This document shows, piece by piece, positions 20,700 to 27,654 of a stretch of 64,000 nt of DNA (positions within the stretch are counted from its first letter, which is position 1; each line of letters begins with the position of its first letter). The notes below the pieces were generated by a model. The model was not told the origin of the DNA. It did not search any database and saw only the letters and a program-made list of their open reading frames with translations. A program made the position numbers and the translations under genes. Source of the stretch: Acaryochloridaceae cyanobacterium OTE_75_metabat_521 (GTDB taxonomy: Bacteria; Cyanobacteriota; Cyanobacteriia; Thermosynechococcales; Thermosynechococcaceae). The stretch lies in assembly GCA_031387975.1 (NCBI GenBank), contig JANNDV010000008.1:1-64000 (forward strand), read 5' to 3'.

Positions 20700-21923
20700 T
20701 TAGCATCTCAATAAAACGTCCTTCAGGCCATCTCGAACTTGTTCTTGCTCAGCAACCGTCAGTTCAGGAAACATCGGCAAAGATAAAACCTCCAGTGCAG
20801 CTTTATCCGCTATGGGCAACTGACCGAGTTCATAGCCAAGATGCGCATAGACAGGCTGAAGATGCAGCGGTAATGGGTAGTACACCATCGACTGTATGCC
20901 TTGCTCTGCTAAAGCTGCCCGAACCTGATCGCGCCGAGGGGCTGGGGGTTCAATCCCGCTGGCGCTGAGAACCACATCTGCCGCTGAGGTAAGGGCGCGA
21001 TCGCGGCTTCTGCTGAGGTAATGCAAATCGCCGTCGTGGCTGACGCGAATGGTGTACTGATTCCATACGCTGTCTTGGTGCGCTTGGGGAATAGTAATGC
21101 CTGGGATATTGCCCAGAAGCTGAGCATAGTGCTGAGCAACCGCTTTTCGCTGAAGATTCCAATGGTTTAAATGACGCAGTTTAACGCTTAAAATTGCCGC
21201 CTGAATCGCATCTAGACGACTGTTCATGCCAATGGCTTCGTGGATATAGCCGCTGCGTCGCCCGTGGTCGCGCACAATCCGCATTTTTTCGGCGAGTGCG
21301 GCACTGTGTGTTGTAATCGCACCGCCATCACCGTAGCCCCCTAGGTTTTTGCTGGGGTAAAAGCTAAAGCAGCCAATCTCTCCAATGCTGCCTACTTTTT
21401 GCGTTTGCCCAGTTGAGTTTTGCCAAACTGCTCCTGTGGCCTGGGCGCAGTCTTCAATGACAGGTAGCGAGTATGCCTGGGCGATTGCCATTACCCGCGC
21501 CATATCTGCGGTTTGCCCAAAGAGGTGAACGGGCATAATGGCTTTTGTGCGTGGGGTAATTGCCGCCTCTAGCTGCTCGGCATCTAGGTTAAAGGTTTCG
21601 GGCGCAATATCGACAAAAACGGGCGTAGCCCCCGCCATGCTGATCACCTCTGCGGTGGCAATAAACGTAAAGGGGCTGGTGATGACCTCATCTCCTGGGC
21701 CAATATCAAAGGCGCGTAGCGCTAAATAGAGGGCATCGGTACCAGAATTACAGCTAATGCAAAACGGGGTCTGAGTATAGTCTGCGAATGCCTGCTCAAA
21801 TTGGGCAACCACGGGGCCGCCAATATACTGACTGGACGCTAATACTGCTAAAACTGCTGCATTGATATCGTCTTGAAGGGCTTGATACTGTCGGGCAAGG
21901 TCAAGGGGGGGAATGGTGTTCAC
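20700..21923 (-). CDS. DegT/DnrJ/EryC1/StrS-family PLP-dependent sugar aminotransferase
   Basis: 407 aa. The motifs match nucleotide-sugar aminotransferases, with the FSFYPSKNLG lysine motif and GDEVITSPFTF. Confidence 0.8.
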   Translation of the reverse strand: MNTIPPLDLARQYQALQDDINAAVLAVLASSQYIGGPVVAQFEQAFADYTQTPFCISCNSGTDALYLALRAFDIGPGDEVITSPFTFIATAEVISMAGATPVFVDIAPETFNLDAEQLEAAITPRTKAIMPVHLFGQTADMARVMAIAQAYSLPVIEDCAQATGAVWQNSTGQTQKVGSIGEIGCFSFYPSKNLGGYGDGGAITTHSAALAEKMRIVRDHGRRSGYIHEAIGMNSRLDAIQAAILSVKLRHLNHWNLQRKAVAQHYAQLLGNIPGITIPQAHQDSVWNQYTIRVSHDGDLHYLSRSRDRALTSAADVVLSASGIEPPAPRRDQVRAALAEQGIQSMVYYPLPLHLQPVYAHLGYELGQLPIADKAALEVLSLPMFPELTVAEQEQVRDGLKDVLLRC

Positions 21924-22160
21924 TCAATCGGTTCCTAACAATTTAAAAGGGCGCAGCCCAGAACAGACCTATACCCACTGGGGAATTGAAAGATTGCTCT
22001 ACGACTTGGATGCCACAGAATCTTTGAGCAATCGAAGAATCATTTCAGACACAAGCCTTAATGTACCGTGATCGGCTCAAATGTTCTACCGTGAGCCGCT
22101 AGTTTTTAGCAAACGTTAAGTTCATAAGCAACAATTGGGTAAGACACGCTGATTTCTCTC

Positions 22161-22856
22161 TCAATTGCTAACGCTCATTTCTTCAGCACGAGTCCCTTCA
22201 TATCCAAAAAATCTAAGTCCTTTGATCCCTGCTTCCTCAAGCGTTTCTTTAGCAGTAGGTGAGACAAAAAGAGCGGTTGTTGCTCTATCTGTAAGTCTAA
22301 ATATGGGTGGAAATCCACCAACTGGTTCCCTCAAAACAAGCTTTGGAATATAGGTGTAGACAGGATCCTCATTAAATTTAAATTCAGTCCGGTCATAGTC
22401 AATAACATCCAAATGCTCTAAGAGTTGTAAGCCTACATAATCCTCATTAAATTCCCCCATTAGAGGAACTGTTTGTCCCTTTAAGTTATACCTGCCTTGG
22501 TCTAGAAATCTGTAGTCATAAATTCGAGTTGGGATTGCTTTATAGGAAAAACTTCCTACAGAATGCAACGTGTACAGCATCCGCTTGGAAATCAAAGTCC
22601 AACCTAAGTCACATTCGAGGAAGTCAGTTTGATGAAACCGATCAAAAAAACCTAACCACTCGACAGGCTCAGGCTCATCGTAAGGTTTAGAAAAGGTAAG
22701 TTCATCACCAGAAAATCTACTTTGCCTATGAGAATTGTAAATCAACACGTCACAACTCTCTGCTTCGCCGTACTCTCGATCTAGCGGATCTTCAGGTAGT
22801 TCATGAATGCGATCAAGTTGTTGGAAGACTATATAAGCAACAATCGAATCAGTCAT
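22161..22856 (-). CDS. Putative polymorphic-toxin immunity protein, paralog 3 of a tandem array
   Basis: 231 aa. It is paralogous to 22866..23429 and 23658..24371. Shared blocks are IVAY, EDPLDREYGEAE, ISKRMLY.L.S.G.F..K, EFNEDYV.LQLLEH.D.IDYD, LVL.EPVGGFPPIFRL and EEAGIKGL.F. It sits downstream of and co-oriented with the candidate toxin gene. Confidence 0.5.
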   Translation of the reverse strand: MTDSIVAYIVFQQLDRIHELPEDPLDREYGEAESCDVLIYNSHRQSRFSGDELTFSKPYDEPEPVEWLGFFDRFHQTDFLECDLGWTLISKRMLYTLHSVGSFSYKAIPTRIYDYRFLDQGRYNLKGQTVPLMGEFNEDYVGLQLLEHLDVIDYDRTEFKFNEDPVYTYIPKLVLREPVGGFPPIFRLTDRATTALFVSPTAKETLEEAGIKGLRFFGYEGTRAEEMSVSN

Positions 22857-22865
22857 TTTTACCTC

Positions 22866-23429
22866 TTAGCTAGCCGTACTGACTTCTTGAGCGCGGGTGC
22901 CTTCATACTCAGTAAATCTAAGCCCTTTGATACCTGCTTCTTCTAAAGCTTCTTTCGTAGCAGAGGAAACGAATAACGAACCATCTTCACCGATTCTATC
23001 GAGTCTAAAAATCGGTGGAAACCCGCCAACTGGCTCTTTTAAGACAAGATTTATAACGTAGGGGGGCATATTCGGATTTAGGCGGAATCTGAAGTCAGAC
23101 TGGTCGTAATCGATACCATCTACATGTTCTAAAAGCTGCAATCCAACATAGTCTTCATTAAATTCACCTCCAGGTGCAATAGAAGGCCCTTCATAGTCAT
23201 GTTTCCCATAGCTTCCTTTACCTTGGTCTTGAAAGCTATAGTCATAAATCCGGGTAGATATTGCCTTATGGGGAAACTCACCTACAGAGCGCAATACATA
23301 GAGCATTCGTTTAGAAATAATCGGTTCAAAGCCATCGGTGCTCAAGAAATCTGTTTGATGAGGCAAACGATCCAGAAAACCTACAAAGTCAATAGGTTCT
23401 GGCCCAGGATAGGGAATCGTGTCACTCAT
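22866..23429 (-). CDS. Putative immunity protein paralog 2, N-terminally truncated by an upstream in-frame TAG
   Basis: 187 aa. The reading frame continues upstream in-frame to ATG 23583-23585, encoding MSYSIVAYK...EDPLDREYSEAEDYD, the same N-terminal module as paralogs 1 and 3. It is interrupted by TAG at 23436-23438. That stop aligns with a Trp codon in paralog 1, consistent with TGG to TAG. The ORF as called reinitiates two codons downstream. Confidence 0.5.
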   Translation of the reverse strand: MSDTIPYPGPEPIDFVGFLDRLPHQTDFLSTDGFEPIISKRMLYVLRSVGEFPHKAISTRIYDYSFQDQGKGSYGKHDYEGPSIAPGGEFNEDYVGLQLLEHVDGIDYDQSDFRFRLNPNMPPYVINLVLKEPVGGFPPIFRLDRIGEDGSLFVSSATKEALEEAGIKGLRFTEYEGTRAQEVSTAS

Positions 23430-23657
23430 GCCGCCCTAAGACAGACCTCTTGGTCTCGTAGGTTTATGAGTAATCGCATCATAATCTTCCGCCTCACTAT
23501 ACTCTCTATCCAGCGGGTCTTCAGGTAGAGAATCTAGGCGTTCGAGATTATGACCTATTTTGTAAGCAACAATCGAGTAAGACATAATGATCTCTTCTTC
23601 TAAGCAACTTCAGAATGATCTAGAGACTCACCCTGAGCAAGGCTGCCTATTTGATAT

Positions 23658-24371
23658 CTAACTAGCTGTACTGGCTTCTTGAGCGCGAGTGCCTTCGTAC
23701 TCAAGAAAATCGAGTCCTTTGATGCCTGCTTCTTCAAGGGCTTCTTTCGCAGCAGGGGAAACGAATAACGAACCATCTTCACCGATTCTATCGAGTCTAA
23801 AAATAGGTGGAAACCCGCCGACGGGTTCCTTTAAGACAAGACTTGTAACGTAGGGGGGCATATTCGGATTTAGGCGGAATCTGAATTCAGACTGATCGTA
23901 GTCAATGCCATCCACATGTTCTAGAAGCTGCAAACTCACGTAATCTTCATTAAATTCACCCGCTGGTGGAGTCGTATTCCCCTCATAATGATTTTTTCTA
24001 CCTTGATCTTGAAAGCCATAATCATAAATCCGCGTAGAAATTACCTTATGCGGAAACTCACCAAGAGAACGCAGTACGTACAGCATTCGCTTGGAGATGA
24101 TTGGCTTTAAGTCAAGATCATCTACATACAAATAGTCCGTTTGATGAAGTCGCTCATCCAGAAACCCAACAAAATCAATAGGTTCAGGGCCAGGGTAAGG
24201 TATCGTTCCTCTCGTACCGCTCCAAGGAATTTCCTTTGGCTCTGTAGGTTTATAAACCCAGGCATTATATGTTTCTGCTTCGCCATACTCCCTGTCCATT
24301 GGGTCTTCAGCTAGTGAATCTAGAAAGTCAAGACTAGGAGTCATTTTATAGGCAACTATTGGGTAAGACAC
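23658..24371 (-). CDS. Putative immunity protein paralog 1 (full length), translationally coupled to upstream toxin gene
   Basis: 237 aa. The GTG start lies 14 nt after the toxin stop, with AAGGAG in between. It is paralogous to the two downstream genes. Confidence 0.5.
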   Translation of the reverse strand: MSYPIVAYKMTPSLDFLDSLAEDPMDREYGEAETYNAWVYKPTEPKEIPWSGTRGTIPYPGPEPIDFVGFLDERLHQTDYLYVDDLDLKPIISKRMLYVLRSLGEFPHKVISTRIYDYGFQDQGRKNHYEGNTTPPAGEFNEDYVSLQLLEHVDGIDYDQSEFRFRLNPNMPPYVTSLVLKEPVGGFPPIFRLDRIGEDGSLFVSPAAKEALEEAGIKGLDFLEYEGTRAQEASTAS

Positions 24372-24385
24372 GCTGATTTCTCCTT

Positions 24386-26599
24386 TTACGCAACTTCAGA
24401 ATTATCTGAATTCTCGCCCTGAGCAAGACTCCCAGTTGGTCTGGTTATCTTCTTGAGGTCTTTATAAAGCGCTTTATCCTCATTCATTAATCCATCCCTC
24501 ATCCGTGTAAGTGATTCATCCCATACAGCCTTTATTTCCTCCTTCGTCATTTGCGGTATGAATTTTTCATTTTTACCAGAAATCCCTTTTGCCTCTCTAA
24601 TCGCGGTGATTTCATCGTCAACCACTGTCTGCATCAACGCATCAAACTTCTTGTGCTGAGTATTGTGAACAAAATCAGAGAACTGCACATTCCGATGCGC
24701 TTGCCTTGCCGCCTTGAGACTATCGAGACTATTCGCCAACTCAATGAGATTCATTGCATCGTCAGGATTCACCGCACCCAACCGTAACGCCCGCTGCCCA
24801 AAGGGCGTTGAGCGCAGCATATTGTCCGCATACAGGTGATGCACCTGAGAACCCTTTCCCAAAATCTTTCCAGGCTCCCCTGGAATCGTCTCTACATTTT
24901 TGGGATATGCGCCATCATCGACAATGCGATACTCACCCTTCGCCCCCATCTGAATTTTGCCCTTACTATCCACCTTCAAAGGCACCATCGTTTTATCAGA
25001 ACCCGACATATAAACCACCTCTCGAAACGTGCCATCCTTGAGCGGAATCTTGCCATATAGATAGCCCTCCGGCAGGTTATTCGGGTCAACCTTCGTCCCA
25101 ATAAACGACTTCACCGACCCTGCATTGGCATAATCGCCCAGCACATGCTTCTTTGCCTTCGCTGTCTTCAGCGCCTCTTCCGTCGTCATCTGCGCCGTCT
25201 GCCCTCTCATCTCACTACGCGACAGCTTACCAACCCCCACAATCTCCTGAGACGGCCTCAGCACCTCCATCACCTCATCCACCATTGATTGGGGCACCCC
25301 CTTCGCCTTCATCAAAAGTTCTCGCGCCCTCTCCAAACCTGCATCTCCCTGACGCGCCAAACTCATAACCTGCACCCACGTCTGGCGTAACACCTGCGCA
25401 CCTTGCACACTCCCCTGACCCACCAGCCGCTCCAGACCCCGAATTACCCCAACCTCAGCCCCCACATCCAGACCCGCCAGCGCCACATTCGCATAGCCCA
25501 TCACCAAATTAAACCGCGCCTGCTCCAGTGACTGACTTGTGAGCTGCCCTGCACCCCCACGCCCCGACTGTGCCGCCGCATTCAACAGCATCAAATCCGG
25601 TACATCATAGGCAAACGTCGCGCTCATCGTCCCCGCACCCACCATTCGCAGTAATGCAGCACCCCCGCGCAACTGCGGAATAAACGACGCCAGAAATAAC
25701 CCACCCCCAACGGCCTGGCCTAACTGCGACAAGCGCTCCTTATTGCCACGCTCATCCTCTAACCAACTCGTCAGATCCTTGCGTTGTGCTTGGTTATGAC
25801 CTTCCTTCAACAGCTCACTCGTCACCACAGAATCAAACAGCAGCGCTGTCGATGGATCCTTTGTTACCTCAGCGCTAAGCTTGTTGATATTGCCTCGTAT
25901 CCCATCAAACTCTTCGGGCAAACGCCTCTGCACACGCTTAATATCTTCAGGATTCGCCCCCATCTCATTCTTCACCGCAGACAGCGCCGGATACAAATAT
26001 TCGAGCGATACCTGCATCTGTTTGGCAACCGCAATGCGCTCCCCTAGCCGCTTCTTCTGCTCACTCAATGCCAACAGTCGCTTATTTTTAAAGCTGTTTT
26101 GCCTCTCTTGAGGGGTTGCCATTAAACCCATTCCATCTGGGATATCGCTGAGGTTATGAATCTCAGCCGTCGTAAATTCGAGCTGCTGCAGTAAATTCGC
26201 ATGTTGAGCCTGAAACTCACGGCGTTGTGCTGCCACCTGCCAGAGGCGTGACCAGCGATCGCTCTTAGGGTTGTTGTCCTGAAGGTATTGCGTTTGTTCT
26301 GCATTGAGACGGTCTTTGTTGGCCTTCAGCAACCCCTGTGCTCTGGCGGCAACATTGGCTTCAAACTGATGGTGAATCTGTGTTTGGGGCTGTTTACTCT
26401 TCGGTTCTGTCTCAGAAGGCTCGGATTCTTTCGCTTTTGCATCTGCACGCAGTTTCGCCTTTCGCTTTTCTTCTTCGCGAATCTTGGCTTTTCGTTTTTC
26501 TTCTTCTAGACGTAGTTTCTTCTGACGCTCTTGTTCAGCTCGGATTTTGAGTTGACGTTCTTGTTCTTCGCGACGTGCTTTCTGCGGGTCTACAAACAT
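24386..26599 (-). CDS. Candidate polymorphic toxin: KR/E-rich coiled-coil N-terminus, Gly/Ala-rich central region, C-terminal xHH-type (HNH/EndoVII-like) nuclease-like domain
   Basis: 737 aa. The C-terminal ~150 aa contain GSQVHHLYADN and a downstream HNTQHKK motif. Both motifs are shared with the orphan toxin fragment at 32736..33800. Three paralogous small genes follow on the same strand, and a copy of this gene's last ~50 nt reappears within that array. Confidence 0.5.
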   Translation of the reverse strand: MFVDPQKARREEQERQLKIRAEQERQKKLRLEEEKRKAKIREEEKRKAKLRADAKAKESEPSETEPKSKQPQTQIHHQFEANVAARAQGLLKANKDRLNAEQTQYLQDNNPKSDRWSRLWQVAAQRREFQAQHANLLQQLEFTTAEIHNLSDIPDGMGLMATPQERQNSFKNKRLLALSEQKKRLGERIAVAKQMQVSLEYLYPALSAVKNEMGANPEDIKRVQRRLPEEFDGIRGNINKLSAEVTKDPSTALLFDSVVTSELLKEGHNQAQRKDLTSWLEDERGNKERLSQLGQAVGGGLFLASFIPQLRGGAALLRMVGAGTMSATFAYDVPDLMLLNAAAQSGRGGAGQLTSQSLEQARFNLVMGYANVALAGLDVGAEVGVIRGLERLVGQGSVQGAQVLRQTWVQVMSLARQGDAGLERARELLMKAKGVPQSMVDEVMEVLRPSQEIVGVGKLSRSEMRGQTAQMTTEEALKTAKAKKHVLGDYANAGSVKSFIGTKVDPNNLPEGYLYGKIPLKDGTFREVVYMSGSDKTMVPLKVDSKGKIQMGAKGEYRIVDDGAYPKNVETIPGEPGKILGKGSQVHHLYADNMLRSTPFGQRALRLGAVNPDDAMNLIELANSLDSLKAARQAHRNVQFSDFVHNTQHKKFDALMQTVVDDEITAIREAKGISGKNEKFIPQMTKEEIKAVWDESLTRMRDGLMNEDKALYKDLKKITRPTGSLAQGENSDNSEVA

Positions 26600-26868
26600 C
26601 GTGCCAGCCTTAGTCTGTCGTCAACCGTTTATGATTTGGAAAATTAGCCCCATTTTAGTCCTACTCTCCTCGAAAAGCTTAGCGCCTTTAGTTTTATTTT
26701 TTAAGGGGGGTGCGCTATTTTCCTGGCATCCTCTGTTACTGTCAAAATCTGAATGTGTAATTGCTGCAACGGTTCAGTCCGAATACATAAGGTTCAGCGC
26801 TAAGCTTAGGATCTCAAACTGTAGCTTCAAATGAGCATTTTCCTTCACGTCTCTTTCCTTTAGGTGCC

Positions 26869-27654
26869 ATGACCAACCTGATTCAGCTACAGCCTACAGA
26901 TTTTGTGGGTGCCGTTGGCATGATGGCGATCGCAGTCGCCCTTTCCGCATGGCAGCGGCTCAACCTAGAACGGGATCTCATGGTCGCCACTGCTCGAACC
27001 ACCATTCAGCTTGTAGTGGTGGGCTATATTCTGTGGTTTGTGTTTGACCTAAAACATCCCCTCGCAGTTTTAGGGGTAATTGCCGCAATGCTGGTGATTG
27101 CCACCCTCGAAACCCGTAACCGCATTGGTAAAACGATGCCTAATGAGCTATGGCTGCTGGGCGGCTCTCTCTTGACGAGCCTCGTGATTACCCTTACCTA
27201 TACCACCGTATTGGTGATTCGCCCTGCGCTTTGGTACGACCCGCAGTATCTCATTCCCCTGGCTGGCATTGTGTTGGGGAACGTCATGAATGGGGCGGCG
27301 ATCGCCGGAGAGCGGCTGATGCAGATGGTGCAAACCCACCGCGCTGAAATCGAAACGCATCTGTGCCTGGGCGCGACCCCAGAGGAGGCGATCGCACTCT
27401 ATCGCAGAACCGCCATCCGCACTGGACTGATTCCTACCCTGAACGCCATGATGGTGGTGGGTGTAGTGACCCTACCTGGCATTATTACAGGGCAGCTCTT
27501 GAGCGGCGTCAATCCGCTAGATGCAGCGTCTTATCAAATGTTGATTATGTTTATGCTGGCCTTCTCAACCCTGGTGACAACGGTACTCGTGGTGCAGGGC
27601 TTAGCAAAGCAGTGTTTTAATGCAGCCGCCCAACTTGTCGTGCCGCAGTCTTAG
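26869..27654 (+). CDS. ABC transporter permease, FetB/YbbM (UPF0014) family
   Basis: 261 aa and polytopic. The N-terminal region (MMAIAVALSAWQRLNLERDLMVATARTTIQLVVVGYIL) resembles the FetB-type iron-export permease. No cognate ATPase lies adjacent. Confidence 0.6.
   Translation: MTNLIQLQPTDFVGAVGMMAIAVALSAWQRLNLERDLMVATARTTIQLVVVGYILWFVFDLKHPLAVLGVIAAMLVIATLETRNRIGKTMPNELWLLGGSLLTSLVITLTYTTVLVIRPALWYDPQYLIPLAGIVLGNVMNGAAIAGERLMQMVQTHRAEIETHLCLGATPEEAIALYRRTAIRTGLIPTLNAMMVVGVVTLPGIITGQLLSGVNPLDAASYQMLIMFMLAFSTLVTTVLVVQGLAKQCFNAAAQLVVPQS

What the first reader, a model, noticed from the sequence alone, without database searches (positions are those of the whole stretch)
23436..23655. Displaced copy of the toxin gene 3-prime end plus a nonsense-disrupted immunity paralog: recombination scar of cassette duplication
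The last approximately 50 nt of the effector gene, including its stop codon (24386..24440), recur at 23600..23655 between immunity paralogs 1 and 2, at about 38 of 45 identities. The recurring copy encodes …GSLAQGESLDHSEVA*, against …GSLAQGENSDNSEVA* in the intact gene. Directly after it, an ATG at 23583-23585 opens the frame of paralog 2. That frame encodes the same N-terminal module as paralogs 1 and 3 (MSYSIVAYK…EDPLDREYSEAEDYD). It is cut by TAG at 23436-23438 exactly where paralog 1 has Trp, consistent with TGG to TAG. The ORF resumes at an ATG two codons later. This indicates duplication of a toxin-tip-plus-immunity unit followed by decay, as in Rhs/CDI orphan arrays. It also raises the question of whether the N-terminally truncated paralog 2 is still made and functional.
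Basis: seen in the sequence. Interest (0 to 1): 0.6.

Follow-up and report, generated by a model that had tools for sequence, protein, structure and literature searches.

The report
Toxin-tail relic and newly broken immunity gene
A cyanobacterial nuclease-toxin island carries a row of immunity genes; the 58-base stretch between the first two is the last remnant of a former, different toxin gene, and the second immunity gene was very recently broken by a stop codon. This is a clear but ordinary example of how such toxin loci turn over.

Summary
The last 47 nt of the toxin gene recur at 23600..23647, with 38/47 identities; no shuffle out of 5000 scored as well. The frame opened by the ATG at 23585 is a full Imm11 immunity gene cut by TAG at 23436..23438. 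Three sister metagenome contigs carry the same array with TGG at that codon and an intact 239-aa gene. The nonsense change, and a Gly30-to-Ser change at an invariant residue, are therefore recent and strain-specific.

The locus is a 4.6-kb island (22121..26765) that is absent from three related Thermosynechococcaceae/Acaryochloridaceae MAGs. It holds an AHH-nuclease polymorphic toxin, three Imm11 genes and the 5' stub of a fourth.

The relic is not a copy of the resident toxin tip. It matches the tail of another toxin allele better (45/51 against 39/51, with an identical peptide), and that allele's adjacent immunity gene is imm2's closest relative. Related contigs show every stage of decay, from 612-aa orphan toxin fragments down to such relics.

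The reading as an orphan toxin-immunity module in an Rhs/CDI-like array holds. The reading as a duplication of the resident unit does not. This is a known kind of system (Zhang et al. 2012). The interest is moderate to low.

The parts
24386..26599 (-). Polymorphic toxin gene, 737 aa. It has a Lys/Glu-rich N-terminus, a conserved central region with no known domain, and a C-terminal AHH (HNH/EndoVII) nuclease domain at residues 581-667, with the motif QVHHL. It ends in the tail ...TRPTGSLAQGENSDNSEVA*.
   Evidence: Pfam AHH 25.1 bits, cut-off 22.3; homologues share the N-terminal part but carry AHH, EndoU, WHH, RNase-A-like or PF26324 C-termini; the tail is conserved only in AHH-type members.
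24386..24433 (-). Resident toxin tail: the last 15 codons plus the stop codon. This is the sequence that recurs as the relic.
23658..24371 (-). imm1: an Imm11 immunity gene of 237 aa with a GTG start, 14 nt after the toxin stop. By position it is presumably the cognate immunity gene.
   Evidence: Imm11 32.2 bits, cut-off 22.1.
23600..23657 (-). Relic of the 3' end of a former, different-allele AHH toxin gene. About 19 codons remain, including the TAG stop at 23600..23602. It begins directly after imm1's stop codon.
   Evidence: for the statistics; best match is the L014 toxin tail; homologous relics occur in L009, L014, L018 and L001; a MITE-like element is inserted inside it in L006/L008.
23586..23599 (-). 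Short spacer with a degenerate Shine-Dalgarno sequence (AAGAAGAG). It is homologous to the toxin-imm1 intergenic spacer (AAAGGAGAAATCAGC).
23436..23585 (-). imm2 N-terminal fragment: 49 codons, then TAG at 23436..23438 (Trp50 to stop, G-to-A at 23437). It also carries G-to-A at 23498 (Gly30 to Ser, at a residue invariant in 87 homologues).
22866..23429 (-). imm2 C-terminal ORF of 187 aa, starting at Met53, 6 nt after the TAG. It holds the part of the protein that matches the Pfam Imm11 profile, and it is identical in sequence to the intact sister alleles.
   Evidence: Imm11 34.3 bits; P0033 is 99.6% identical to the repaired imm2.
22161..22856 (-). imm3: an Imm11 immunity gene of 231 aa, 55% identical to imm1 and imm2. 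It lies 9 nt after imm2 with no toxin relic in front.
22121..22160 (-). Stub of a fourth immunity gene: an RBS spacer plus GTG TCT TAC CCA ATT GTT GCT TAT GAA (MSYPIVAYE). It is cut at the island's right end.
   Evidence: 31 nt, 97% identical to 24352..24382.
22121..26765 (.). Toxin-immunity island of about 4.6 kb, between the DegT-family aminotransferase gene and the permease gene at 26869. It is absent from three related MAGs. It is flanked by an imperfect 12-bp direct repeat, at 26766..26777 (CTGAACCGTTGC) and 22109..22120 (CTTAACGTTTGC). The immunity array is 42.5% G+C, against about 50% in the flanks.
26717..26745 (-). The best sigma-70-like promoter match in the region (TTGACA-17-GAAAAT). 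It lies inside the island, upstream of the toxin gene. This is a consensus match only.

Best explanation
The element is the last remnant of an orphan toxin-immunity module inside a polymorphic-toxin island.

The island encodes an AHH nuclease toxin followed by its cognate Imm11 immunity gene (imm1). Behind that lie older immunity genes (imm2, imm3 and an imm4 stub) left over from earlier states of the locus.

imm2 once followed a different allele of the toxin, the type now seen in contigs L014-L016. When the toxin tip and a new immunity gene were recombined in ahead of it, or when an orphan toxin fragment was later deleted, everything of the old toxin was lost except its last ~19 codons, its stop codon and its ribosome-binding spacer. 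Those now sit between imm1 and imm2.

The 5' half of the relic is inert, because sister strains tolerate a MITE-like insertion in it. Its 3' ~35 nt plus the spacer probably still serve as imm2's translation-initiation region.

The retained immunity genes most likely protect against non-cognate toxin alleles made by neighbouring strains. That is inferred from Imm11 cross-immunity shown in Myxococcus.

In this particular genome imm2 has just been hit by two G-to-A changes, Gly30Ser and Trp50stop. As a result the full protein is no longer made. At best a 187-aa product lacking the conserved N-terminal strand and helices could arise, by re-initiation at the ATG 6 nt after the stop.

What is shown: the homology, the alleles, the mosaicism and the island boundaries. 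What is inferred: the order of events, the protective role, and the loss of function.
For: - **Homology of the relic.** 38/47 identities, and 0 of 5000 shuffles reach the score.
- **Match to another allele.** The relic peptide GSLAQGESLDHSEVA* is identical to the L014 toxin tail. At the DNA level it matches that tail 45/51, against 39/51 for the resident tail.
- **imm2's relatives.** imm2 is 85-86% identical to the immunity gene directly after that toxin (P0041), against 77% to imm1.
- **Shuffled arrays.** imm1, imm2 and imm3 lie in separate deep clades, and the array order differs in L017 and L018.
- **Cognate pairs.** Toxin-CT identity and position-1 immunity identity correlate (r = 0.73).
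- **Recurring relics.** Relics with the same junction, a stop codon followed by GTATYARATAG, precede interior immunity genes in L009, L014 and L018 and follow the lone immunity gene of L001.
- **Decay series.** Orphan toxin fragments of 612, 440 and 159 aa lie between immunity genes in L101-L106.
- **Recent break.** Sister contigs L006, L007 and L008 carry TGG and differ from the window's imm2 at only 2-3 of 720 nt. pN/pS against L009 is 0.15. Gly30 is invariant in 87 homologues.
- **Tolerated insertion.** A MITE-like element sits inside the relic in L006/L008.
- **Ongoing exchange.** L007 differs from the window by a ~900-bp replaced patch covering the toxin's AHH half and the imm1 5' half. 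The imm2-imm3 block is 99.8-100% identical to L006, whose housekeeping flanks are 88-96% identical. There is also an imm2-to-imm1 conversion tract.
- **Island.** It is absent from L021, L022 and L023.
- **Experimental anchor for AHH-Imm11.** The immunity profile and the AF2 model both match MXAN_0049 (PDB 6a4c). MXAN_0049 neutralises the AHH nuclease MXAN_0050 (PMC12077131).
- **General model already stated.** Zhang et al. 2012 describe it (PMC3482391).
Against: - The comparison loci are short metagenome contigs, which can be chimeric or strain consensus. The mosaic and sweep patterns, and some array orders, therefore need long-read confirmation.
- The relic-versus-tail comparison rests on about 50 nt (45 against 39 matches).
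- The shared junction implies a single old event that then spread by recombination. The window alone cannot tell whether this locus gained imm1 in front of imm2 or gained the relic and imm2 behind imm1.
- There are no expression or activity data. The protective role of imm2 and imm3 and the loss of function of the truncated imm2 are inferences.
- A single-base assembly error at 23437 cannot be excluded.
Confidence: 0.75

Rival explanations
1. Local tandem duplication. A segment running from about 45-60 nt before the resident toxin's stop codon to the end of imm1 was duplicated in place. The copy (relic plus imm2) then diverged and is now decaying.
For: The architecture toxin-imm-[tail]-imm is what such a duplication would give. 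imm1 and imm2 share 77% DNA identity overall, and 89% over their last 300 nt. The very first junction of this kind in the family must have arisen by some such illegitimate event.
Against: - imm1 and imm2 fall in different deep clades, each with many closer relatives elsewhere.
- The relic is closer to the L014 and L009 toxin tails than to the resident tail.
- The same junction occurs in arrays with other immunity clades and in other genomic contexts.
- The high 3' similarity is explained by gene conversion, which is seen directly in L007/L008.
- imm2 has been under purifying selection, not decay.
Confidence: 0.12
2. The relic is kept because it works. It would be a conserved 5' leader (ribosome-binding context, translational coupling, or a small RNA or peptide) needed to express the downstream immunity gene, and not a mere scar.
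For: The 3' part of every relic (GAYnAYTCTGAAGTTGCnTAR plus AAGGAGA) is much better conserved than the 5' part, even in the decayed L009 and L014 copies, and the stop codon is nearly always kept. In L006/L008 the MITE-like element went into the 5' half and left the 3' 35 nt next to imm2.
Against: - imm3 and all of the L017 array do without any relic.
- There is no Rfam match, and the RNA folding energy is no better than shuffles (z = 0.32).
- There is no promoter-like site in the relic.
- Conservation of the last 15-20 nt before an RBS is also expected simply from recency and from hitch-hiking with the start region.
- This reading explains retention of the relic, not its origin, so it complements the main explanation and does not replace it.
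Confidence: 0.1
3. The stop codon does not inactivate imm2. Either it is an assembly error, or termination at the TAG followed by re-initiation at the ATG 6 nt downstream yields a 49-aa piece and a 187-aa piece that together, or the 187-aa piece alone, still give immunity.
For: - The break lies in the least confident, unstructured stretch of the AF2 model (residues about 40-64; pLDDT 56 for residues 41-50).
- An in-frame ATG follows immediately.
- A second lineage (L009-L013) independently lost the normal start codon (ATG to ATA) and leaves the same 187-aa ORF open.
- The Pfam Imm11 match lies wholly in the 187-aa part.
Against: - The N-terminal 52 residues contain invariant or near-invariant positions (A7, Y8, L14, L20, R27, Y29, G30, E33, A37, P42) and a confidently modelled beta-strand at residues 4-12.
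- The Foldseek alignment to MXAN_0049 spans the whole length.
- The window allele also carries Gly30Ser at an invariant residue. That fits relaxed selection better than a maintained split gene.
- Two lineages are too few to argue for convergence.
Confidence: 0.08

Closest known systems
Strings of immunity genes behind full-length polymorphic toxin genes, and toxin-tip replacement by recombination (Zhang, de Souza, Anantharaman, Iyer & Aravind 2012, PMC3482391)
   Same: The gene order is toxin then immunity, and the toxin gene is followed by several same-strand immunity genes with short spacers. [quoted passage not shown] It lists Imm11 as partner of Tox-AHH and as occurring in homogeneous polyimmunity loci.
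   Different: Here the leftover of the replaced toxin is physically visible as a 58-nt tail relic whose source allele can be named. The toxin's N-terminal region matches none of the trafficking domains catalogued there. The host is a Thermosynechococcaceae/Acaryochloridaceae cyanobacterium.
Rhs and CdiA orphan toxin-immunity arrays of Enterobacteria and Burkholderia
   Same: Downstream of the full-length toxin gene lie displaced C-terminal toxin fragments, each with its own immunity gene. Relatives of this locus (L101-L106) show exactly that, with fragments of 159-612 aa.
   Different: There are no Rhs/YD or filamentous-haemagglutinin repeats and no VENN or PxxxxDPxGL demarcation motif. In the window the orphan toxin part is reduced to 19 codons and lacks any stretch of the conserved region that could recombine with the main gene to swap toxins.
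AHH-Imm11 pairs of Myxococcus xanthus (MXAN_0050/MXAN_0049 and homologues; PMC12077131, PMC12077181; PDB 6a4c)
   Same: The toxin domain family (Pfam AHH) and the immunity family (Pfam Imm11) are the same. [quoted passage not shown] Cross-protection between immunity homologues of 46-86% identity has been shown experimentally. The window's immunity profile and model match 6a4c.
   Different: The Myxococcus toxins are delivered by the T6SS (PAAR-linked) or by outer-membrane exchange (SitA lipoproteins). The window toxin has neither signature. Sequence identity to MXAN_0049 is only about 18%.

Membership tests
Polymorphic toxin system (sensu Zhang/Aravind) | Homologues share the N-terminal/central region but carry different C-terminal toxin domains | tested here: met
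   the same N-terminal region carries AHH, EndoU, WHH, CdiA-CT RNase-A-like and PF26324 C-termini.
Polymorphic toxin system (sensu Zhang/Aravind) | Immunity gene immediately downstream on the same strand | tested here: met
   imm1 starts 14 nt after the toxin stop. The same arrangement is seen in L001, L005, L007, L009, L014, L017 and L018.
Polymorphic toxin system (sensu Zhang/Aravind) | Recognisable N-terminal trafficking or secretion domain (T5SS, T6SS, T7SS, MafB, signal peptide and so on) | tested here: not met
   No Pfam or NCBIfam domain other than AHH in the window toxin or in five homologues. The delivery route is unknown.
Polymorphic toxin system (sensu Zhang/Aravind) | Toxicity of the C-terminal domain and its neutralisation by the adjacent immunity protein | not testable with these tools
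   This needs co-expression or competition assays. The only support is by analogy with MXAN_0050/0049.
Tox-AHH nuclease (Pfam PF14412) | Profile match above the curated cut-off, and the [AG]HH motif | tested here: met
   25.1 bits against a cut-off of 22.3, residues 581-667. The motif reads QVHHL: the HH dyad is present, but the first residue is Val, not Ala or Gly.
Imm11 immunity family (Pfam PF07791 / DUF1629) | Profile match above the curated cut-off | tested here: met
   imm1 scores 32.2 bits, the imm2 C-terminal ORF 34.3 and imm3 33.5, against a cut-off of 22.1. Only profile positions of about 100-192 are matched.
Imm11 immunity family (Pfam PF07791 / DUF1629) | Fold like the prototype MXAN_0049 | tested here: met
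   The profile against PDB 6a4c gives E = 6.7e-5. The AF2 model (pLDDT 82.8) against 6a4c gives Foldseek E = 5.3e-7, probability 1.00 and TM 0.44-0.48 over the full length.
Rhs/CDI-type orphan toxin-immunity array | Orphan modules made of a C-terminal toxin-coding fragment plus its immunity gene, downstream of the full-length gene | tested here: inconclusive
   In the window only a 19-codon relic plus imm2 remains. Full orphan fragments occur in relatives L101-L106.
Rhs/CDI-type orphan toxin-immunity array | The orphan keeps part of the conserved pre-toxin region, which allows recombination with the main gene to switch toxins | tested here: not met
   The relic covers only the extreme tail. 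The longest perfect match to the resident gene is 13 nt.
Rhs/CDI-type orphan toxin-immunity array | Rhs/YD repeats, or CdiA FHA repeats with a VENN motif | tested here: not met
   No such Pfam hits.
Stand-alone polyimmunity locus (Zhang et al. 2012) | An array of immunity genes never interrupted by toxin genes or cassettes, and not attached to a toxin | tested here: not met
   The array is attached to a full-length toxin gene and contains a toxin relic.

The most novel reading that the evidence does not exclude
The immunity block, and not the toxin, may be the unit under strongest selection and exchange in these cyanobacterial populations.

The relic-imm2-imm3 block (about 22150..23800) is 99.8-100% identical between this genome and a contig whose flanking housekeeping genes are 4-11% diverged. 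Meanwhile the toxin tip and the imm1 5' half are swapped as a ~900-bp patch among the same strains.

If the contigs are not chimeric, this is a gene-specific sweep of orphan immunity genes across lineages. It would sit in a polymorphic toxin family whose N-terminal delivery region is undescribed.

A bolder add-on is that N-terminal knock-outs of imm2 are recurrent: TAG here and ATG-to-ATA in L009-L013, both leaving the same 187-aa ORF. They might be selected, and would then yield a truncated or split but working immunity protein.
Probability: 0.25. Interest if true: 0.55.

Novelty: new member of a known kind. Interest (0 to 1): 0.33.

Why it matters
It gives a concrete, base-level example of the toxin-tip replacement model for polymorphic toxin loci. 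The scar of the displaced toxin is present, its source allele can be identified, and intact and broken alleles of the orphan immunity gene coexist in nature. It also shows that AHH-Imm11 warfare loci with Rhs/CDI-like orphan arrays exist in Thermosynechococcaceae-related cyanobacteria, on a toxin scaffold with no recognised secretion domain. For annotation, 23436..23585 plus 22866..23429 should be called one pseudogene (an interrupted Imm11 gene), and 23600..23657 should not be called a gene. None of this changes current understanding of such systems.

Tried and rejected
- **Related-locus scans.** Scans of genome contigs and metagenome contigs with the immunity alignment returned no relatives. 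The relatives came instead from the protein database and exact look-ups.
- **Exact look-ups.** Look-ups of the window toxin, of P0001 and of the 187-aa ORF found nothing on record. I could therefore not check whether the TAG allele exists in other assemblies, nor name the source record.
- **Regulatory RNA reading of the relic.** There is no Rfam match at E <= 1 in 21900..26900. The fold energy equals that of shuffles. No promoter-like or terminator-like site lies in the relic, and the counts of such sites in the region are at shuffle level.
- **MITE-like element in the window.** No copy was found of the element seen in L006/L008.
- **Toxin domain searches.** A sequence search of the toxin C-terminal 237 aa against the PDB gave only noise. 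NCBIfam gave nothing for the toxin, for imm1 or for the 175-aa gene upstream of the toxin in L018.
- **Relic as a handle for toxin switching.** I considered that the relic could recombine with the resident tail. I rejected this: the longest perfect match is 13 nt, and a crossover there would delete the cognate immunity gene.
- **Synonymous-only differences.** The window relic and the L014 tail differ by 4 changes, all synonymous. I considered this as evidence that the relic was recently coding. I did not rely on it, because the differences may all have arisen on the still-coding L014 branch.

Full report
**1.

All the genes below are on the minus strand.

| Feature | Coordinates | Notes |
|---|---|---|
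| Toxin ORF | 24386..26599 | 737 aa |
| imm1 | 23658..24371 | 237 aa, GTG start |
| imm2, first fragment | 23436..23585 | 49 codons, ends in TAG |
| imm2, second fragment | 22866..23429 | 187 aa |
| imm3 | 22161..22856 | 231 aa |

- The 72-nt spacer between imm1 and the ATG at 23585 contains a gap-free match to the toxin's last 47 nt, with 38/47 identities (23600..23647 against 24386..24433).
- The local score is 29. Over 5000 dinucleotide shuffles of the spacer the mean is 7.5, the sd 1.4 and the maximum 17. No other tile of the window approaches it.
- The frame opened at 23585 aligns over its whole length with imm1 (75%) and imm3 (55%). The TAG falls on the column where imm1 and the L001 immunity protein have Trp.
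Directly after imm3's stop codon lie an RBS spacer and the first nine codons of a fourth immunity gene (22121..22160). A 31-nt stretch here is 97% identical to the toxin/imm1 junction.

**2. What the genes are.**

- The toxin's only recognisable domain is a C-terminal AHH nuclease of the HNH/EndoVII superfamily (25.1 bits, cut-off 22.3).
- Database homologues share its N-terminal and central parts but end in AHH, EndoU, WHH, RNase-A-like or PF26324 domains. It is therefore a polymorphic toxin.
- No secretion or trafficking domain is detectable.
- The tail ...SLAQGExxDxSEVA* is specific to the AHH-type members.
- All three downstream genes pass the Pfam Imm11 threshold.
- A profile of 87 homologues matches MXAN_0049 (PDB 6a4c) at E = 6.7e-5.
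- An AlphaFold model of the intact imm2 allele (pLDDT 82.8) matches 6a4c over its full length, with Foldseek E = 5.3e-7.
- MXAN_0049 is the experimentally shown immunity protein of the AHH nuclease MXAN_0050 (PMC12077131). Zhang et al. list Imm11 as a partner of Tox-AHH (PMC3482391).

**3. The nonsense mutation is real, derived and recent.**

- Protein P0033 is 99.6% identical to imm2 with the stop codon read as Trp.
- Its three contigs (L006, L007, L008, from three JGI samples) carry the same array, and L007 carries the identical relic. All three have TGG where the window has TAG.
- Over 720 nt the window differs from L006 and L008 at only two sites, both G-to-A. These are 23498 (Gly30 to Ser, a residue invariant in 87 homologues) and 23437 (Trp50 to stop).
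- Against a more distant ortholog (L009), pN/pS is 0.15 overall and 0.26 in the first 52 codons. imm2, including its N-terminal module, was therefore a selected gene for most of its history.
- That second population has its own lesion, start codon ATG to ATA. Gene callers report the same 187-aa ORF there.

**4. The relic is not a copy of the resident toxin tip.**

- In an NJ tree of 119 family members, imm1, imm2 and imm3 fall in three deep clades.
- The closest non-orthologous relative of imm2 is P0041 (85-86% identity, against 77% for imm1). In L014-L016 it lies directly behind a toxin.
- That toxin ends in SGSLAQGESLDHSEVA*, the relic's exact peptide. At the DNA level the relic matches it 45/51, against 39/51 for the resident tail.
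- Toxin-CT identity and position-1 immunity identity co-vary across nine loci (r = 0.73; the pairs are not independent).
- imm1-clade genes sit in position 2 or 3 in L017 and L018, so arrays are shuffled.

**5. Relics are a family-wide feature with a common junction, and they end a decay series.**

- Homologous tail relics precede interior immunity genes in L009 (two), L014 (two) and L018, and one follows the single immunity gene of L001.
- In several of these the relic starts right after the upstream stop codon with GTATYARATAG, as in the window (TAG ATATCAAATAG).
- Other junctions lack any relic: imm2 to imm3 in the window, and all of L017.
- In L101-L106, immunity genes alternate with orphan toxin fragments of 612, 440, 439 and 159 aa. 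These align to window-toxin residues 175, 340, 368 or 580 through 736, and each ends in the tail and is followed by an immunity gene.
- The window's 19-codon relic is thus the end state of an Rhs/CDI-like orphan module.

**6. Recombination is ongoing and the whole unit is an island.**

- Three related MAGs lack window 22121..26789. They are Thermosynechococcaceae JTS-AC461, Thermosynechococcus sp. WC_1 and an Acaryochloridaceae MAG, with DegT 89-95% identical.
- The island (22121..26765) is bounded by an imperfect 12-bp direct repeat that is present once in the empty sites. Its right end cuts the imm4 stub.
- Against L006, the block of about 22150..23800 is 99.8-100% identical, while the adjoining housekeeping genes are 88-96% identical per 200 nt.
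- Against L007, a patch of about 900 bp (24200..25099) is 10-21% diverged between near-identical flanks. It covers the toxin's AHH half and tail and the imm1 5' half.
- L008 is almost identical from about 24600 to 22150 but 5-8% diverged further into the toxin.
- In L007 and L008, imm1 nt 527-567 carry imm2's sequence, which is a conversion tract.
- These patterns match tip-plus-immunity replacement and paralog conversion. They rest, however, on metagenome contigs that could be chimeric.

**7. How it most likely works.**

*Shown:* homology of the relic to a toxin tail; its closer match to another allele; the derived TAG; the island status; the mosaicism.

*Inferred:*
- imm2 was the cognate partner of an L014-type toxin. 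It became an orphan when a new toxin tip and imm1 came to lie ahead of it, or when an orphan toxin fragment was deleted down to its tail.
- The relic's 5' half is functionless. A 129-nt MITE-like element with a 16-bp perfect TIR and a CTCAG duplication sits in it in L006/L008.
- The relic's 3' part and the spacer probably still provide imm2's ribosome-binding context, since that part is the best conserved in all relics.
- There is no RNA family match, no unusual fold and no promoter signal in the relic.
- Orphan Imm11 genes plausibly protect against neighbours' toxin alleles. Myxococcus Imm11 homologues cross-protect at 46-86% identity.
- In this genome, full-length imm2 cannot be made. A 187-aa product could arise by re-initiation 6 nt after the TAG. 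It would lack a confidently modelled strand (residues 4-12) and ten invariant or near-invariant residues. The extra Gly30Ser change fits relaxed selection. I rate residual function as unlikely but untested.

**8. Comparison with what is known, and verdict.**

- The situation is the one described in general terms by Zhang et al. 2012. They describe strings of immunity genes behind a full toxin gene, each the remnant of a tip-replacing recombination.
- The orphan fragments in relatives parallel Rhs/CDI orphan arrays (this rests on my own knowledge). However, the repeats and demarcation motifs that define those families are absent.
- The finding is therefore a well-documented new member of a known kind.
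- Its modest added value is threefold. The scar is identifiable and has a nameable source allele. Intact and broken alleles occur together in nature. The setting is cyanobacterial, on a toxin scaffold with no known delivery domain.

**9. Caveats.**

- The comparison contigs are short. The window's own record could not be located by exact look-up.
- Two collection scans with the immunity profile found nothing.
- No expression or activity data exist.

Noticed in passing
window 22121..22160 (minus strand): An RBS spacer plus the first nine codons (GTG, MSYPIVAYE) of a fourth Imm11 gene lie directly after imm3's stop codon. A 31-nt stretch is 97% identical to the toxin/imm1 junction at 24352..24382. 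The stub ends exactly at the island boundary.
   Followed up: yes
window 22121..26765, with repeats at 26766..26777 and 22109..22120: The whole toxin-immunity unit is an insertion relative to three related MAGs (L021, L022, L023). It is flanked by an imperfect 12-bp direct repeat (CTGAACCGTTGC / CTTAACGTTTGC) that occurs once in the empty sites. No integrase or transposase lies inside. Homologous modules sit in at least four other genomic contexts (L001, L005, L017, L018).
   Followed up: partly
L006:237-365 and L008:1291-1419: A 129-nt MITE-like element is inserted inside the toxin-tail relic of two sister contigs. It has a 16-bp perfect terminal inverted repeat (AGGCTGTTTGAAAAG...), a CTCAG target duplication and a DNA fold z-score of -4.0. 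There is no copy in the window or in any other fetched locus.
   Followed up: partly
L101:685-2004, L101:2681-3997, L104:2588-4423; window ORF 23600..23782: Three long orphan toxin fragments begin at an ATG in the +1 frame of the upstream immunity gene's conserved 3' end (MKALVLKK...). The window relic lies in the same frame, although the ATG there reads ACG. This could mean that orphan toxin fragments are translatable, or it may only reflect a shared ancestral junction.
   Followed up: no
window about 22150..23800 against L006; window 24200..25099 against L007: The imm2-imm3 block is 99.8-100% identical to a contig whose housekeeping flanks are 88-96% identical. A ~900-bp patch covering the toxin's AHH half and the imm1 5' half is 10-21% diverged in L007, between near-identical flanks. 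This suggests recent exchange of immunity and toxin-tip segments between diverged lineages, unless the metagenome contigs are chimeric.
   Followed up: partly
L007/L008 imm1 nt 527-567 (window 23805..23845): The sister alleles of imm1 carry imm2's nucleotides at about 7 clustered sites. This looks like a short gene-conversion tract between paralogs of the array.
   Followed up: partly
L009:2253-2255 and the same position in L010-L013: A second population has lost imm2's start codon (ATG to ATA) while keeping TGG at codon 50. Its tail relic is more decayed, with an in-frame stop and an indel. This is an independent lesion in the same N-terminal module.
   Followed up: partly
window 24386..26599 (toxin residues 1 to about 550); L018:6155-6682 and L005:5722-6249: The toxin family's conserved N-terminal and central region has no Pfam or NCBIfam match, so the delivery route is unknown. 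It includes hydrophobic stretches such as GGGLFLASFIPQLRG and FNLVMGYANVALAGLDVG. In two relatives an uncharacterised 175-aa gene sits just upstream of the toxin. It is absent from the window.
   Followed up: partly
window 22073..22098 (minus strand): A hairpin-forming sequence, CGGCTCA-CGGTAGAACATT-TGAGCCG, is followed by a repeat of CACGGTA. It lies just outside the island and is conserved in the empty-site genomes, so it belongs to the core genome, in the region upstream of DegT.
   Followed up: no
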